Source: Promethearchaeia archaeon (lineage in GTDB: Archaea; Asgardarchaeota; Lokiarchaeia; Sigyniarchaeales; SOKP01). From it: a stretch of 38,456 bases of DNA. The notes under the pieces are model-generated. The model was not told the origin of the DNA and did not search any database. It was given only the letters and a program-made list of their open reading frames with translations. Location: NCBI GenBank assembly GCA_046483985.1, contig JAWOCD010000042.1, forward strand, positions 1-38,456. Direction: 5' to 3'. The position numbers were made by a program, and so were the translations under genes. Each line of letters starts with the position of its first letter. Position 1 is the first letter of the stretch. Below, in pieces: positions 27,646 through 37,592 of the stretch.

Positions 27646-28695
27646 TTAATTTTTATTAGGATTCAGTATTTTTTCTGCGGTGAAATCCCCATAGATCTCT
27701 TTTGCAAGGTTTCTTAAGCCTTCTATTCCGAGCGGTTCTGTTTTTAACCGATTGGATCTCCATATCTCAAGATTTTCAAACTCGTTTTCAATGTCTTTTG
27801 TATATTTTAATTGATTTGAGCGAAGAGAATGACAGAAATCACATTCGGCGCTGGCAGAGTCTGGAATAAGCATATTAATATGGACGCCCTCAAGGTCGAT
27901 ATACTTTTTGGTTAAATCTCTTGCACGTTTTATCTCTTCAAAGCTTGGCTTTTCCGCAATAGTTACCAATCGCAGTGATCCTTTTTCCTTAATTAATTCT
28001 GTAATCCTCTCCCCCCGTTCCTCTAATTGCTTAAGCATTTCCAATATCTCCTCCGCTAATGCCTTTCTTTCCTCTTTGTTTCCGAATGGTTTGATGATTT
28101 TCGTGGCAATCTTGGTTACTCCACGAATAGTCCCCTTGATAGAATTATAGACGTTGAGGGAATACTTCAATAATACCTTTACCGTATCTTCTGGAATCTC
28201 AAACAGAGCCACCATATTTCCAGTGGGAGGAAAATCCGCAACAATGATATCAAAATCAATTCCATCTGCGGTTTTATCCCGATAAATCGAGTCCTCAGCG
28301 TCTAATATTTTTTGAAAAAACATTGAATTTTTTAGGGCAATGGGAATGGAATCGGCATTGAAAGTTTTATCAATAAATTCCTTGATTTGCGGTAAATTCC
28401 CGATTACCGGCATCTTTTTCATAAGTTCTCTCATCTTTCCTGCAAACTCTGCCGTATATTGTTCGGCATATTTATTGGGATCGGGTTCTATCCCCCAAAG
28501 ATTCGATTTTAATTTGGTCAGCTTATCGCCAATCGGTTGTTCAAACATATCGCTAAGGTTATGAGCCATGTCAAAAGAAATTAATAAAATCTTTTTATCC
28601 GGTAGCAAATCGGAGATCGCTACTGCTGTAGCCGCGCTGATTGTACTTTTTCCTACACCGCCTTTTCCGCCAAGTACTAAGATCTTCTCTATCAT
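27646..28695 (-). CDS. ArsA/Get3-family ATPase
   Basis: Deviant Walker A GGKGGVGKST, DMAHNLSD, DFPPTG (DTAPTG equivalent), C-terminal CDFC. Confidence 0.88.
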   Translation of the reverse strand: MIEKILVLGGKGGVGKSTISAATAVAISDLLPDKKILLISFDMAHNLSDMFEQPIGDKLTKLKSNLWGIEPDPNKYAEQYTAEFAGKMRELMKKMPVIGNLPQIKEFIDKTFNADSIPIALKNSMFFQKILDAEDSIYRDKTADGIDFDIIVADFPPTGNMVALFEIPEDTVKVLLKYSLNVYNSIKGTIRGVTKIATKIIKPFGNKEERKALAEEILEMLKQLEERGERITELIKEKGSLRLVTIAEKPSFEEIKRARDLTKKYIDLEGVHINMLIPDSASAECDFCHSLRSNQLKYTKDIENEFENLEIWRSNRLKTEPLGIEGLRNLAKEIYGDFTAEKILNPNKN

Positions 28696-29697
28696 TTTTA
28701 CCTTATCATTCTGAGAAACTATTTCCTCATATATTGCGTAATAAGAAAAAATTATTCTCTCATAAAAAATTAATCCATAAGTTTCAGAGTATTAATATGT
28801 TTAATCTCTCTCTACAATTTCGTGAGACATAGAGATTTTAATCCTTCCTATTTGTCAATTCATACTCTATGGGTATTATAATTTATCTTAAATTTCTCAA
28901 AAAGAGATTGAATTTGGAGAAACTCTTTTTCTTTTATCAGTATTGATCCTCTACTTAATTTTATGCCTTTAATCTTCGCTAATTGGTATATCCAAGGTCT
29001 TTTCTAAATCGAGAAAGAGATCAAATTAGAAATACCGGTTGTTTTCTGGAAAAAGCTAAAAATCCAAAGAGGATAATTGAGTCGATCTCAGAAAATGTGA
29101 CCGTTCTTTTGGATAAATCTATCTATCTCGCTTAAAGTCTGATTATAATGTCTTAAAGGAATTGAATTCTCTTCATTATATGCATCTTGTTTAAATTTCT
29201 CGTATAATTTTTGGTGATTTATAATGAATTCTCAAGTTGTTTGTTAGAAAAAGGATTCTCGGGAAAGAAAATAATGCGAATAGATGCCGAGTTTTTTGAC
29301 TGTCTTTTGATATACACGAATATTCGTCCAAAAGGAGTGGTCATTTTAAGTTTTATCATATCTCTTTCCTTTTGAGAGGTTATTTTTTCGATGATCGCGT
29401 TATTCCAATATTTATTCATCAGTTATCTTATGTAATGTATCTTTAAAAAGGGCAATAATATGGACGTATGATGACTAACTCGTTTTAATATTATAATCTC
29501 AATACACCTTACAAAAAATTTAATTGGATGTAGAATTTTTATTACATAGTTATTAATTAAAAATTAATTAAAATAAAAGTTTATACATTATTCAAATTTT
29601 AACATTACTGTACTAGTTTAAGCTTATCTTACTAACCAAGTACCACTATAGCAAGAATAAGCATGAAATTTGACTCAAGAAATTGAAACATTTATAG

Positions 29698-30953
29698 ATG
29701 GAAGTGATTAAGATTACAAAAAAGCAAACTGATTTCACTACAAAATATATTATTGAAGCGCGATTCAAAATAAAAGGAGTGGTTGAAAAAAGCGATATTG
29801 TAGGGGCTATATTCGGCCAAAGATAAAAAAGATTTTGCCATATCGGCAGATCGGCTAAACGGAAGGTCTACTTTTAGATCTCGATTTGAGGGATCTCCAA
29901 AAATCGGGAAGGATCGGACGAATAGAAGTAGAAAATAAATCCAAAGGGGGAATCTCACAAGGAACAATAAAGATTCCTAGTAGCCTCACAAGACGCGAAA
30001 CAGCATTACTTGCAGCAACTGTCGAAACAGTCACTAGGGTTGGTCCCTGTGAAGCAGAGATTAAACTGGAGGAAATACGTGACGTTAGAGAGACGAAACG
30101 GAAAAAAATAATTTCGCGTGCCGCGGAATTATTAAAAGAATGGGATCAAAAATCCTTAGATAAGAGTGAAATTGAAGAGAAAATAGACGAAGATATTAAG
30201 TTAGGAGAAATCATCACATGGGGTCCAGAAGATTTACCTGCTGGTCCAGAAATAAACGAAAGTAAAGAAATTATTATCGTAGAAGGAAGAGCAGATGTAT
30301 TGAATTTACTCCGTATCGGCGTAAAAAACAGCGTTGCTGTGCAAGGTACTCATATACCTGAATCAATTAAAAAATTGATGAAGAAGAGTAAACCAAAAAG
30401 AACGATAACTGCATTTCTCGATGGAGACCGAGGAGGAACCTTGATCCTAAAAGAAGTTATGCAAGTTGGGAGATTAGATTATGTTGCACGGGCACCAGAG
30501 GGATATGAAGTCGAGGAATTAACCCGAAAACAGATGATCAAAGAATTACAAAACAAGCAACCCGTAGAAGAAATCGGAAAATTACCAGAAGATATCAGTG
30601 CTGAGGAAAAGGAGAAGCCGGTGAGAGAAAAAAGGGAGTTATCCAAATTGGAGAAATTGCTCATAGACCTTAATGCGGGTGACCCGTCAATAATTGTTAA
30701 GGCAATTGAGGATATTGAACCGGGAATGGCAAAGGGGTTTGATTATAATCTTGAAGAACTCTTTTCAATGAAAGTACGGGAGTTATTCGAAGAAATTCGA
30801 AACTATGAGAAGACAAAATTTCTCATTTTTTATGGCATTCTCTCAGAACGTCTGCTTTCACTCACATTAAATTTGGATGTTGAATTTATCGCGTGCAAGA
30901 ATAAAGAAGAAGATTTGAAGATTCCACGCCATATTCACGTTCATTTCTTCTGA
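29698..30953 (+). CDS. dnaG: Archaeal DnaG (TOPRIM; exosome-associated), join(29698..29820,29859..30953), interrupted by a putative 38-nt intron
   Basis: Exon 1 ends KYIIEARFKIKGVVEKSDIVGAIFGQ; exon 2 starts TEGLLLDLDLRDLQKSGRIGRIEV. TOPRIM motifs IIVEGRADV and FLDGDRGG are intact. Confidence 0.92.
29821..29858 (+). other. Putative bulge-helix-bulge mRNA intron in dnaG
   Basis: 38-nt insert with in-frame TAA; GGCC/GGCT 4-bp helix, each strand followed by an AAA bulge; removal restores GQTE. Confidence 0.75.
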
Positions 30954-30994
30954 AATTTTTTATTTTCTTTTTTTTTAGTTTTCATATTTTTGTT

Positions 30995-31423
30995 TTATTG
31001 TTTTTTCCATTCCACATTTACATCAAGGGGTATCCCTTGTCTAATTGAATTGGAAAGAACGCAATATTTTTGAAATTCACGGATACTCTGTTTGATCTTT
31101 TTCTCATCATAGGCATCTTTCGGAATAAAGTCAATATGTCCTTCGATTTTCTCGAATTGTAATAAATTTTCTCTATCTTCCCGATGCGTCAATTCCCCGT
31201 CTATTGTAATCGATATATCTTGAACCTCAATTCCATTTTTCTGACAGGAAAAGGCGAATGTACTTCCCATACACCCCCCTATCCCGAGAAGAAAGTATTC
31301 CACAGGGGATGGTCCCTTATTAGTCCCATGAAAACTCTCGGGTTCGTCCATATGAATATGTGTAAACTCTCGTGCGGAGCCGAGAAAGTGGAGATTTTCC
31401 GAATGTTTAATATGTACTTTCAT
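30995..31423 (-). CDS. OsmC-family protein
   Basis: MDEPESFHGTNKGPSPVEYFLLGIGGC...YCVLSNSI. Confidence 0.88.
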   Translation of the reverse strand: MKVHIKHSENLHFLGSAREFTHIHMDEPESFHGTNKGPSPVEYFLLGIGGCMGSTFAFSCQKNGIEVQDISITIDGELTHREDRENLLQFEKIEGHIDFIPKDAYDEKKIKQSIREFQKYCVLSNSIRQGIPLDVNVEWKKQ

Positions 31424-31625
31424 ATATTTAAATGAGTGTTTTTTTACATATAAGATTTAAATATTCTCAAATTCTTCAATTTCTAATATCTCTAAAAGAA
31501 TCTTCTTAATTCATTTCCATGCTTTTTAGTCATTTAGGGTGTAGATCCACTCTCAAATAAGAATTTAATAGAAAAAATAAATATATGATGAATATAAATC
31601 CTAACAGGAAGTTGGGGAAATTGCT

Positions 31626-31874
31626 CTAATCACCTAACGGTAAGGCTACAGAAAAAATCAACTGAATTACATAACTAAGCGCGCCTAATATGGCTAATCC
31701 AATTGCGCATATTTTAAAAACGAGAAAATATTCTTCCCGATCGGGTTTATTCGCAATCTTTAAGACCCTTTTTACCCCTCGAATGAATTTCTTAATTTTT
31801 TCGTAGAGAGTTTCTCCTTGTTGTGTCTGAGACTTCGATTTATACTTTGCATACTTCGGGTATTCGTTTGACAT
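31626..31874 (-). CDS. secE: Protein translocase SecE/Sec61-gamma
   Basis: RVLKIANKPDREEY plus C-terminal TM helix. Confidence 0.9.
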   Translation of the reverse strand: MSNEYPKYAKYKSKSQTQQGETLYEKIKKFIRGVKRVLKIANKPDREEYFLVFKICAIGLAILGALSYVIQLIFSVALPLGD

Positions 31875-31915
31875 CTTGTTATATTAACCCATAATTCAAT
31901 TTAAGATTTATTGTA

Positions 31916-32818
31916 TTAATCTTCTATTTCCAAGATTTTTGAGACAAAATAATCGGGCTCAAAATCCTTCAGATCATCATAACCTTGACCTACTCCCACA
32001 AAGATGATCGGCTTGCGAGTTTCATGAGCGATGGATAAAGCTGCCCCTCCCTTAGAATCTGCATCTAATTTGGTTAAAATATTGGCATCAATTCCCACAT
32101 TTTTTTGGAATTCCTTGGCTTGGTGGAGGGCATCATTTCCGGCTAAGGAATCTCCTATAAACACCCGTAAATCTGGTTCGGCTATTCTCATAATTTTTTC
32201 TAGTTCAACCATGAGGTTCTTATCCGTCACTTGTCTTCCAGCGGTATCAACTAACACTACGTCAATATCTTTTGCTTTTGCATGGTCTATTGTATCATAG
32301 GCAACTGATGCTGGATCTGACTTATACTTATGTTTTATTACCCGTACGTTAACATTATTCATATGGTGATTAAGTTGTTCAATTGCCCCAGCTCGAAAAG
32401 TATCTGACGCGGCTGCAACAACGGAAAATCCGTGATCCTTCAGATATTTCGCGATTTTAGCCATTGTGGTTGTTTTTCCCGTGCCATTTACTCCCAAAAA
32501 TACGAGTACATATGGAGCCCCATTTTTTGTTTTATCTTTAATTTCATGGAGCAGTTCAATTTCTTGATCTGGCGTTAGAATTTCTAAGATGACCTCTTCA
32601 AGGACATCATTTAACATATTTGATGTTGATTTTAATCGACCTACTTCTTCACCCTTAACTTCATCGATAATTTTTTCGCATATCTCATCCGCAGTATCCA
32701 CTGCTACATCGTTAGAGTAGAGGATTATTTTTAATTCTTCGAGGGCATCTTCTAACTTCTCCTCTGTTAGAGTTTTCTTGACAAAACTAGAAAACGCGTT
32801 TTTTAATTTGTCGAGCAT
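31916..32818 (-). CDS. ftsY: SRP receptor FtsY
   Basis: GVNGTGKTTT, DTFRAGA, DTAGR, TKLD, GVGQ. Confidence 0.96.
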   Translation of the reverse strand: MLDKLKNAFSSFVKKTLTEEKLEDALEELKIILYSNDVAVDTADEICEKIIDEVKGEEVGRLKSTSNMLNDVLEEVILEILTPDQEIELLHEIKDKTKNGAPYVLVFLGVNGTGKTTTMAKIAKYLKDHGFSVVAAASDTFRAGAIEQLNHHMNNVNVRVIKHKYKSDPASVAYDTIDHAKAKDIDVVLVDTAGRQVTDKNLMVELEKIMRIAEPDLRVFIGDSLAGNDALHQAKEFQKNVGIDANILTKLDADSKGGAALSIAHETRKPIIFVGVGQGYDDLKDFEPDYFVSKILEIED

Positions 32819-37521: not shown

Positions 37522-37592
37522 TGCAGCAACCGGGGATTGAACCCGGGTCTCTGGCTTGGAAGGCCAGAATCCTACCGCTAGACAATTGCTGC
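37522..37592 (-). tRNA. tRNA-Gly(TCC), intronless
   Basis: GCAGCAATTGTCTAGCGGTAGGATTCTGGCCTTCCAAGCCAGAGACCCGGGTTCAATCCCCGGTTGCTGCA folds as a cloverleaf with anticodon TCC; CCA not encoded. Confidence 0.96.

What the first reader, a model, noticed from the sequence alone, without database searches (positions are those of the whole stretch)
29811..29871. Candidate bulge-helix-bulge mRNA intron splitting dnaG
Seen: the ORF track starts dnaG at 29886, but the conserved N-terminus (KYII...GVVEKSDIVGAIFGQ) is encoded upstream at 29698-29820 in another frame. A 38-nt insert (29821-29858, AGATAAAAAAGATTTTGCCATATCGGCAGATCGGCTAA) with an immediate in-frame stop separates it from TEGLL. The junctions fold as GGCC(29815-18)/GGCT(29853-56), a 4-bp helix with an AAA 3-nt bulge on each strand. 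An intron-side GAT/ATC stem and an internal TTGCC/GGCAG hairpin follow. Exon-exon pairing is imperfect (C-C next to the bulge, then TTC/GGA or GAA, and GTAGG/TCTAC). Established: archaeal tRNA splicing endonuclease cuts after the second nucleotide of each bulge. Applied here this gives GGC CAA|ACG GAA = G-Q-T-E, restoring the canonical GAIFGQTEGLL motif. BHB mRNA introns are best known from crenarchaeal cbf5. Inference: this is an EndA/ligase-spliced mRNA intron in an Asgard housekeeping gene. Since archaeal DnaG is an exosome-associated RNA-binding subunit, splicing could couple RNA decay to endonuclease activity. Both exons are otherwise free of lesions.
Basis: partly seen in the sequence, partly recalled or inferred. 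Interest (0 to 1): 0.93.

Follow-up and report, generated by a model that had tools for sequence, protein, structure and literature searches.

The report
tRNA-type mini-intron splits Asgard dnaG
The only dnaG gene of this Loki-type Asgard archaeon is broken by a 38-base insert shaped like a tRNA intron; related genomes keep such an insert at the same codon boundary with matching base-pair changes, so the mRNA is very probably cut and rejoined by the tRNA-splicing enzymes, which the papers I could search confirm for one archaeal protein gene (cbf5).

Summary
Observation confirmed. A 38-nt insert (29821-29858) splits dnaG between profile positions 26 and 27 (GAIFGQ|TEGLL). It is the only dnaG in a 97%-complete Promethearchaeota MAG. 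Inserts of 29-43 nt sit at the same boundary in 14 of the 24 other same-family genomes sampled, and in genomes of three other families. In 22 distinct sequences the 4-bp central helix (Gly-codon wobble base plus the C of the Gln codon, against the intron 3' end) pairs in 100% of cells. One position shows five pair types. Both exons are under strong purifying selection. The genome encodes a crenarchaeal-type EndA catalytic subunit and two RtcB ligases. Best reading: a bulge-helix-bulge (HBh'-class, weak outer helix) mRNA intron removed by EndA and RtcB (confidence 0.88). No RNA evidence could be obtained. The "direct repeat" is a by-product of palindromic GGCC. The regulatory idea has no support. 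New here: related lineages carry BHB introns at two other sites, 21 nt upstream and 10 nt downstream. Presence differs between genes 96% identical. This scan has already noted tRNA-type mRNA introns on other Asgard DNA and elsewhere in this genome. In the papers I searched only cbf5 is confirmed.

The parts
29698..29820 (+). dnaG exon 1 (ATG 29698; conserved DnaG N-terminus from 29743; ends with codons GGC CAA = G-Q)
   Evidence: NF003108 profile positions 1-26 match 29743-29820. In pairs of intron-bearing genomes pN is 0-0.24 against pS 0.32-0.89.
29815..29818 (+). Central helix H, 5' strand (GGCC: last two bases of... Gly codon GGC plus the C of CAA)
   Evidence: Pairs with 29853-29856. It is 100% paired in 22 distinct sequences, and the wobble-base pair shows CG, AU, GC, UG and GU.
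29819..29821 (+). 5' bulge AA|A; predicted cut after 29820
   Evidence: The cut position follows the rule used for the cbf5 BHB motifs (between the 2nd and 3rd bulge residue, PMC2738675). It gives GGC CAA|ACG GAA. The A-run makes cuts 1-2 nt earlier on both sides give the same product.
29821..29858 (+). 38-nt intron; the exon-1 frame reads AGA TAA, so translation stops at once if it is unspliced
   Evidence: Same-site inserts of 29-43 nt occur in relatives, all with an early in-frame stop.
29822..29824 (+). Inner helix h', 5' strand (GAT)
   Evidence: Pairs with ATC 29850-52. It is 95.5% paired across 22 sequences; G026 has the compensated form GAC/GTC.
29835..29849 (+). Internal intron hairpin (UUGCC, 5-nt loop, GGCAG)
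   Evidence: The equivalent GCC-loop-GGC hairpin is present in most of the 35-43-nt versions.
29850..29852 (+). Inner helix h', 3' strand (ATC)
29853..29856 (+). Central helix H, 3' strand (GGCT)
   Evidence: It changes to GCCT, GTCT, GTTC or GTTT in step with the exon Gly codon.
29857..29859 (+). 3' bulge AA|A; predicted cut after 29858. The bulge is not closed by a canonical outer helix.
   Evidence: Next to the bulge, C29814 faces C29860. Phe TTY can pair with Glu GAR in all 22 sequences, but that leaves a 5-nt bulge and the pairing is dictated by coding.
29859..30956 (+). dnaG exon 2 (TEGLL... Toprim domain ... stop TGA 30954-56)
   Evidence: NF003108 positions 27-283 plus the C-terminal piece; Toprim Pfam hits. 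dN/dS is 0.05-0.16 between intron-bearing genomes.

Best explanation
The 38 nt at 29821-29858 are an archaeal bulge-helix-bulge (BHB) intron inside the dnaG coding sequence. In the transcript, the exon bases GGCC (29815-18) pair with GGCU at the intron's 3' end. Together with the intron stem GAU/AUC, this presents a 3-nt bulge at each junction. The tRNA-splicing endonuclease (EndA) cuts after the second base of each bulge, and RtcB joins the exons. The result is ...GGC CAA ACG GAA... and a full-length DnaG of about 405 residues. The unspliced RNA stops two codons into the intron. Shown here: the anatomy; the exact restoration of the protein profile; the same-site inserts with covariation in relatives; purifying selection on both exons; and the presence of EndA and RtcB genes. 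Inferred: that cleavage and ligation actually occur, and at these bonds. The motif is of the relaxed HBh' class, with four central pairs and an intron-side helix but a weak exon-side helix. That class needs a broad-specificity endonuclease of the two-subunit crenarchaeal/Asgard type.
For: 1. Exact split: profile positions 1-26 and 27-283 abut at 29820|29859.
2. Single copy: no other dnaG in a genome that is 97% complete.
3. Same-site inserts: they occur in 14 of the 24 other family-f1 genomes sampled and in G026 of family f3, in 11 further named Promethearchaeota MAGs, in the nearest relative at 85% amino-acid identity (35 nt), and in families f6 and f10.
4. Central helix: it is paired in 100% of cells in 22 distinct sequences, against 9-53% for slid controls. 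One position has 5 pair types and 7 double changes, and 0 of 500 shuffles reach the covariation score.
5. Unique register: in every other family, only one of the frame-restoring cut registers has 4 of 4 (or 3 of 4) central pairs plus a 4-9 bp stem.
6. Selection: exon-2 dN/dS is 0.05-0.16, and exon-1 pN is far below pS. The codons right at the junction (ACN GAR GGN) vary synonymously.
7. Precise absence: intron-less relatives read exactly GGN CAR ACN.
8. Enzymes: the EndA catalytic subunit is most like A. pernix 3P1Z_B/3AJV_B (E = 3e-35) and aligns through the region I take, from memory, to be the Crenarchaea-specific loop. Two RtcB genes are present. Asgard EndA is reported as the (alpha-beta)2 type with the broad-specificity L1 loop (PMC5829648).
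9. Other cases in this genome: an EF-2-family gene carries a canonical 30-nt BHB insert.
Against: No RNA evidence exists. Two exact searches for spliced junctions in JGI metagenome contigs found nothing. No full-length protein more than 90% identical to an intron-bearing lineage turned up among the 120 best database hits. The exon-side helix next to the 3' bulge is poor (C.C or U.C mismatch), so the 3' bulge is not canonically closed. The BHB fold is not the local minimum-free-energy structure; it lies 3-11 kcal/mol above it in nearly all of the 22 sequences. The EndA beta subunit was not identified here.
Confidence: 0.88

Rival explanations
1. Pseudogene: a small insertion has inactivated dnaG and the gene is decaying.
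For: The insert brings an immediate stop and a frameshift. Gene callers report only a truncated 354-355-aa product.
Against: It is the only copy in a 97%-complete genome. The insert is kept at the same site in more than 25 genomes, with both exons at dN/dS 0.05-0.16 and synonymous sites near saturation. There are no other lesions. Helix covariation has no meaning for a dead gene.
Confidence: 0.02
2. Translational bypass (hop) or other recoding: the ribosome skips the 38 nt, as in phage T4 gene 60.
For: A stop lies right after the break. There is a hairpin in the gap. In this genome there is a near-repeat TCGGCCAAA/TCGGCTAAA.
Against: Landing on the repeated GGC would be followed by TAA, not ACG. 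In other lineages the 3' element is the complement of the exon bases, not a copy (GGAC/GTCT, GGGC/GCCT, GGTC/GACC), so no matched take-off and landing codons exist. Gap lengths range from 29 to 43 nt.
Confidence: 0.03
3. Split gene: exon 1 makes a 42-aa peptide and exon 2 is translated separately from an internal start (TTG 29886), or only the N-terminally truncated protein is made.
For: An in-frame TTG lies 9 codons into exon 2. Annotation pipelines call it that way (P0002-P0004).
Against: The nine codons TEGLLLDLD upstream of that TTG are conserved as protein with synonymous variation. There is no conserved start codon at a fixed place. This model does not predict the covarying helix that bridges exon and insert. 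Intron-less relatives encode one continuous protein.
Confidence: 0.04
4. A real intron, but removed by machinery other than EndA/RtcB (self-cleaving or an unknown nuclease), or a misassembly.
For: The BHB is relaxed on the exon side and is not the MFE fold.
Against: At 38 nt it is far too small for a group I or II intron, and there is no Rfam match. The conserved geometry is exactly 4 bp flanked by 3-nt bulges. More than 25 independent assemblies carry same-site inserts, which rules out misassembly.
Confidence: 0.03

Closest known systems
BHB intron in the cbf5 (pseudouridine synthase) pre-mRNA of Crenarchaeota (Watanabe 2002; Yoshinari 2006; Yokobori 2009, PMC2738675)
   Same: Both are short introns inside a protein-coding ORF. 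Both have a mostly unconventional (relaxed) BHB, with the predicted cut between the 2nd and 3rd bulge residue. The hosts have hetero-oligomeric endonucleases. The distribution is patchy and implies gain and precise loss. Annotators have mistaken such genes for frameshifts or truncations.
   Different: The gene differs (dnaG, at the GAIFGQ|TEGLL motif of the N-terminal domain) and so does the phylum (Promethearchaeota/Asgard). Three intron sites lie within about 31 nt of coding sequence in different lineages. Splicing of cbf5 has cDNA and in vitro support; this one has none yet.
Archaeal pre-tRNA BHB introns, including the many non-canonical ones of Asgard tRNA genes (bioRxiv 10.64898/2026.10.13.758758; PMC5829648)
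   Same: The motif is the same (4-bp helix, two 3-nt bulges, intron hairpin). The size range is the same. The presumed enzymes are the same (EndA alpha-beta type, RtcB).
   Different: The host RNA is an mRNA with no tRNA body to help recognition. [quoted passage not shown] The tRNA preprint does not contain the word mRNA.
HAC1/XBP1 unconventional mRNA splicing in eukaryotes (Ire1 plus tRNA ligase/RtcB)
   Same: An mRNA intron is removed without the spliceosome, by an endonuclease plus the tRNA ligase, and this changes the reading frame. This comparison rests on my own knowledge.
   Different: The nuclease is different (Ire1, stem-loop sites) and that system is regulated by stress. No regulation is shown here.
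Phage T4 gene 60 translational bypass
   Same: There is a short untranslated gap with a stop and a hairpin inside an ORF.
   Different: It requires matched take-off and landing codons, which are absent here. The comparative pattern is complementarity, not repetition.

Membership tests
Archaeal BHB (EndA-type) intron | Central helix of 4 base pairs between exon bases upstream of the 5' cut and intron bases upstream of the 3' cut | tested here: met
   GGCC 29815-18 pairs with GGCU 29853-56. It is paired in 100% of cells in 22 distinct sequences, with 5 pair types at one position.
Archaeal BHB (EndA-type) intron | Two 3-nt bulges on opposite strands; cutting after the 2nd bulge base restores the product | tested here: met
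   AA|A at 29819-21 and AA|A at 29857-59. Cuts at 29820|21 and 29858|59 join profile positions 26 and 27 exactly.
Archaeal BHB (EndA-type) intron | At least one flanking helix of 2 or more pairs (h' on the intron side or h on the exon side) | tested here: met
   h' is GAU/AUC, 95.5% paired, with a compensated GAC/GUC form. This places it in the HBh' class under the rule of bioRxiv 10.64898/2026.10.13.758758.
Archaeal BHB (EndA-type) intron | Strict hBHBh' form: an exon-exon outer helix directly closing the 3' bulge | tested here: not met
   C.C or U.C faces the bulge. TTY/GAR pairing leaves a 5-nt bulge and is forced by coding. The distal GTAGG/TCTAC helix is not conserved. It is therefore the relaxed, not the strict, form.
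Archaeal BHB (EndA-type) intron | Host encodes a splicing endonuclease able to cut relaxed motifs, and an RtcB ligase | tested here: inconclusive
   The EndA catalytic subunit is present and closest to the A. pernix alpha subunit. Two RtcB genes are present. The beta subunit was not identified here. That Asgard EndA is (alpha-beta)2 with the L1 loop comes from PMC5829648.
Archaeal BHB (EndA-type) intron | Exact excision seen in RNA (spliced junction, circular intron) | not testable with these tools
The junction searches were empty.
cbf5-type archaeal pre-mRNA intron | Intron lies inside a protein-coding ORF, breaks it, and removal restores a conserved motif | tested here: met
   The conserved GAIFGQTEGLL motif is restored.
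Translational bypass (T4 gene 60 type) | Matching take-off and landing codons flanking the gap | tested here: not met
   The landing GGC is followed by TAA. Other lineages have no repeated codon at all.
Group I / group II self-splicing intron | Ribozyme core of hundreds of nt | tested here: not met
   The insert is 38 nt, and there is no Rfam hit at E <= 1.

The most novel reading that the evidence does not exclude
The start of dnaG may be a hot spot colonised again and again by a mobile family of BHB mini-introns. Related lineages carry introns at three sites within about 31 nt: D-I|V, G-Q|T-E and TEGL|LG. The upstream-site intron shares 20 of 24 bases with the 3' half of the intron at this site. 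It is about 93% identical between genomes whose dnaG exons are only about 74% identical. It is also present or absent between genes 96% identical. On this reading, Asgard BHB introns actively move into and between protein-coding genes. That would be a prokaryotic model of intron gain in the closest archaeal relatives of eukaryotes.
Probability: 0.3. Interest if true: 0.85.

Novelty: new member of a known kind. Interest (0 to 1): 0.7.

Why it matters
In the papers I could search, splicing of an archaeal protein-coding message by the tRNA-splicing enzymes is confirmed for one gene, cbf5 of Crenarchaeota (2002-2009). The 2009 paper states that no other gene had been confirmed.

A well-supported case in a conserved, single-copy information-processing gene of Loki-type Asgard archaea has several consequences:
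- Standard gene calling truncates or splits such genes in these genomes; here DnaG loses its conserved N-terminus.
- The tRNA-splicing machinery probably has essential mRNA substrates in the closest archaeal relatives of eukaryotes.
- The patchy, multi-site distribution offers a tractable system for studying how small introns are gained, moved and precisely lost in coding sequence.
- It gives exact, cheap predictions for RT-PCR, in vitro cleavage and proteomics.

Tried and rejected
- Spliced junctions: exact 30-nt junctions of G000 and of the Zodletone-type lineage gave 0 hits each in JGI metagenome contigs.
- Spliced proteins: I looked for full-length proteins near-identical to intron-bearing lineages among the 120 best database hits. 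The best was 89% identical, so none was informative.
- Folding: unconstrained folding does not recover the BHB (z = -0.74). I therefore relied on comparative counts and a constrained fold.
- Canonical outer helix abutting the 3' bulge: it is mismatched. The alternative TTY/GAR register is always pairable, but this is uninformative because the codons force it.
- The direct-repeat reading (target-site duplication or hop) is rejected, because the partners covary as complements.
- Rfam gave nothing.
- My first genome-wide BHB plus ORF-repair scan was far too permissive (38,086 structural hits, 1,069 after ORF filters). Only the strict subset of 17 was inspected. Of these, only the EF-2 case was cross-checked against a protein profile.
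- The careful maximum-likelihood tree did not finish. The quick IQ-TREE and a FastTree were used, so the number of gains and losses is only bounded: at least 2 forced, 8 most parsimonious.

Full report
**What is in the window**

The + strand carries an ORF from ATG 29698 that reads MEVIKITKKQTDFTTKYIIEARFKIKGVVEKSDIVGAIFGQ. It then runs into AGA TAA. From 29859, in another frame, the sequence reads TEGLLLDLDLRDLQKSGRIGRI... through a Toprim domain to a stop at 30954. The longest conventional ORF starts only at TTG 29886.

Against the NCBIfam model of archaeal DnaG (NF003108), the first piece matches profile positions 1-26 and the second matches positions 27-283. The 38 nt at 29821-29858 therefore interrupt the gene between two adjacent residues, with nothing lost or duplicated.

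**Whose genome it is, and copy number**

The window is contig 13 of a 4.06-Mb assembly that is 97% complete. This is its only dnaG. The closest named records are Promethearchaeota (Loki-type Asgard) MAGs.

**Comparative evidence at this site**

- Of the 24 other genomes sampled from the same family, 14 have an insert at exactly the same codon boundary and 10 have none. In the genomes without it, the DNA reads GGN CAR ACN without a scar.
- One genome of a second family (G026) also has an insert at this boundary.
- Eleven more examples came from named MAGs.
- The nearest relative, at 85% amino-acid identity, has a 35-nt version.
- Lengths range from 29 to 43 nt. All versions stop translation within two or three codons.

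I aligned 22 distinct junctions (A1) and counted pairs for the BHB model.

- The central 4-bp helix is formed in 100% of cells.
- The pair made by the wobble base of the Gly codon occurs as C-G, A-U, G-C, U-G and G-U, with seven double changes.
- Sliding the 3' partner by 1-3 columns drops pairing to 9-53%. No shuffle of 500 reaches the observed covariation score.
- The intron-side helix GAU/AUC is 95.5% paired, and G026 has a compensated GAC/GUC.

This is what a structure recognised in RNA predicts. It is not what a target-site duplication or a hop predicts. The near-direct repeat in this genome exists only because GGCC is self-complementary.

**Function of the gene**

Between intron-bearing genomes, exon 2 has dN/dS of 0.05-0.16, with synonymous sites near or at saturation. 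The 26 conserved codons of exon 1 show pN of 0-0.24 against pS of 0.32-0.89. The codons immediately after the junction (ACN GAR GGN CTN) vary synonymously. This argues against translation starting at the downstream TTG. The gene is neither dead nor split into two products.

**Machinery**

- The genome encodes a 200-residue EndA catalytic subunit.
- Its best structural relatives are the alpha subunits of the heterotetrameric Aeropyrum pernix enzyme, 3P1Z_B and 3AJV_B (E = 3e-35).
- The alignment runs without gaps through the stretch ...GAPLGISKPR.... From memory, I take this to be the Crenarchaea-specific loop.
- Two RtcB genes are present.
- A 2018 paper reports that Asgard archaea have the (alpha-beta)2 type with the L1 loop, which confers broad substrate range (PMC5829648).

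This matters because the motif here is relaxed on the exon side. The base next to the 3' bulge is mismatched. The only consistent exon-exon pairing (Phe TTY with Glu GAR) leaves a 5-nt bulge and is dictated by the codons.

By the rule used in a 2026 preprint on Asgard tRNA introns, four central pairs plus one flanking helix makes this an HBh'-class motif. The BHB-constrained fold is stable (-15.0 kcal/mol here) but lies above the unconstrained minimum.

**Wider distribution and a new observation**

I sampled 200 further genomes of the phylum and read the junctions.

- The same boundary is occupied in two further families. In f6 the insert is 32 nt with GGCC/GGUU. In f10 it is 31-34 nt with GGUC/GACC in one genome and 3 of 4 pairs in two others. 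The intron bodies are unrelated.
- Seven genomes of family f14 carry a canonical BHB intron (28-31 nt, 4-9 bp stem) 10 nt downstream, splitting TEGL|LGEDL.
- In each case, exactly one of the frame-restoring registers has the BHB geometry.

Truncated database proteins beginning M-x-K-VGAIFGQTEG led me to a third site, 21 nt upstream (D-I|V). It occurs in four lineages and has AGAU paired with GUCU, GUUU or AUCU.

- This upstream intron shares 20 of 24 bases with the 3' half of the intron at the present site (hairpin AAGYC-ANUUC-GRCUU, then AAU-YGKCU-AA).
- It is 28/30 to 29/31 identical between genomes whose dnaG exon 2 DNA is only 73-74% identical.
- It is present in one MAG and absent from others whose exon 2 is 95.5-96.2% identical.

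On quick trees, intron state is scattered. These facts point to frequent precise loss, to gain or relocation, or to both. I cannot separate these here.

**Context in this genome**

A strict scan of my own found other ORF-repairing BHB inserts. These include a 30-nt one in an EF-2-family gene whose profile match reads through two stops. Earlier notes of this scan list the same and further cases in this genome and in other Asgard genomes. I used them as leads only.

**What is missing**

There is no RNA evidence. Two exact junction searches were empty. No spliced-form protein was found.

**Literature**

Searches of the held library found cbf5 as the only confirmed archaeal pre-mRNA intron (PMC2738675). 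They found nothing on dnaG or on Asgard mRNA introns. Journals not held in the library were not searched.

**Verdict**

This is a new member (new gene, new phylum) of the cbf5-type class of EndA-spliced mRNA introns, supported by strong covariation but not yet by RNA data. The suggested link between splicing and exosome regulation is unsupported speculation.

Noticed in passing
L095:351-381, L096:169-198, L051 and L052 (about 35 nt upstream of the GxxFGQTEG motif): A second dnaG intron site lies 21 nt upstream (GAT AT|...|A GTC, i.e. D-I|V) in four lineages that lack the intron at the present site. It has BHB geometry, with AGAU paired to GUCU, GUUU or AUCU. The intron body closely resembles the 3' half of the intron studied here (20 of 24 bases). 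It is far more conserved (about 93%) than the host exons (about 74%).
   Followed up: partly
L080-L083, L089-L091 (family f14 genomes G122, G050, G087, G144, G111, G060, G147): A third dnaG intron site lies 10 nt downstream (GGC CTA C|...|T CGG, splitting TEGL|LGEDL). These are canonical BHB introns of 28-31 nt with 4-9 bp stems, and GCCU or GUCU pairs with GGGU or GGGC.
   Followed up: partly
window 29841-29858: The intron ends with a near-tandem repeat (ATCGGCA G ATCGGCT AA; TTCGGCTTAATCGGCTAA in most relatives). The exon GGCC could therefore also pair with the hairpin's 3' strand. A cut there would give a non-productive product (Q-I-G-stop). It could be an alternative fold, a trace of origin by duplication, or nothing.
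   Followed up: no
G000 contig C115:48042-48071 (+): A 30-nt in-frame insert with two stops sits in an EF-2-family gene. It has the full hBHBh' form: AUUG/CAAU, a 9-bp stem and a 3-bp outer helix. The aEF-2 profile match reads straight through it.
   Followed up: partly
G000 contigs C32:149428-149457 (-), C45:48366-48395 (+), C101:46681-46711 (-), C126:19476-19506 (+), C17:73757-73784 (+), C66:68657-68688 (+): Further 28-32-nt inserts have BHB geometry, and their removal joins two open frames. They come from the strict subset of my own scan, except C45, which is from the permissive list (two G-U pairs in its central helix). The first two match earlier notes (AMP phosphorylase, WecC-like dehydrogenase). 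The others were not checked by homology and may be chance.
   Followed up: no
G125:C35, G099:C3, G127:C6 (L092-L094): The dnaG matches in three other genomes of the phylum contain 2-5 stops further inside the gene (profile positions 1-311, 1-324 and 1-325). These could be more introns at other sites or broken genes. I did not examine them beyond the N-terminus, which is continuous.
   Followed up: no
window 27646-32818: The neighbourhood is an ArsA/GET3-like ATPase (27646-28695, -), dnaG (+), an OsmC-like protein (30995-31423, -), SecE (31626-31874, -) and FtsY/SRP receptor (31916-32818, -). The gene names for the window rest on likeness to relatives' loci with Pfam hits, not on a scan of the window. 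Part of this order recurs in relatives: dnaG-OsmC-SecE in L095, dnaG-SecE-FtsY in L096, and ArsA-dnaG in L072. A tRNA-Gly(UCC) without a called intron lies at 37522-37592.
   Followed up: no
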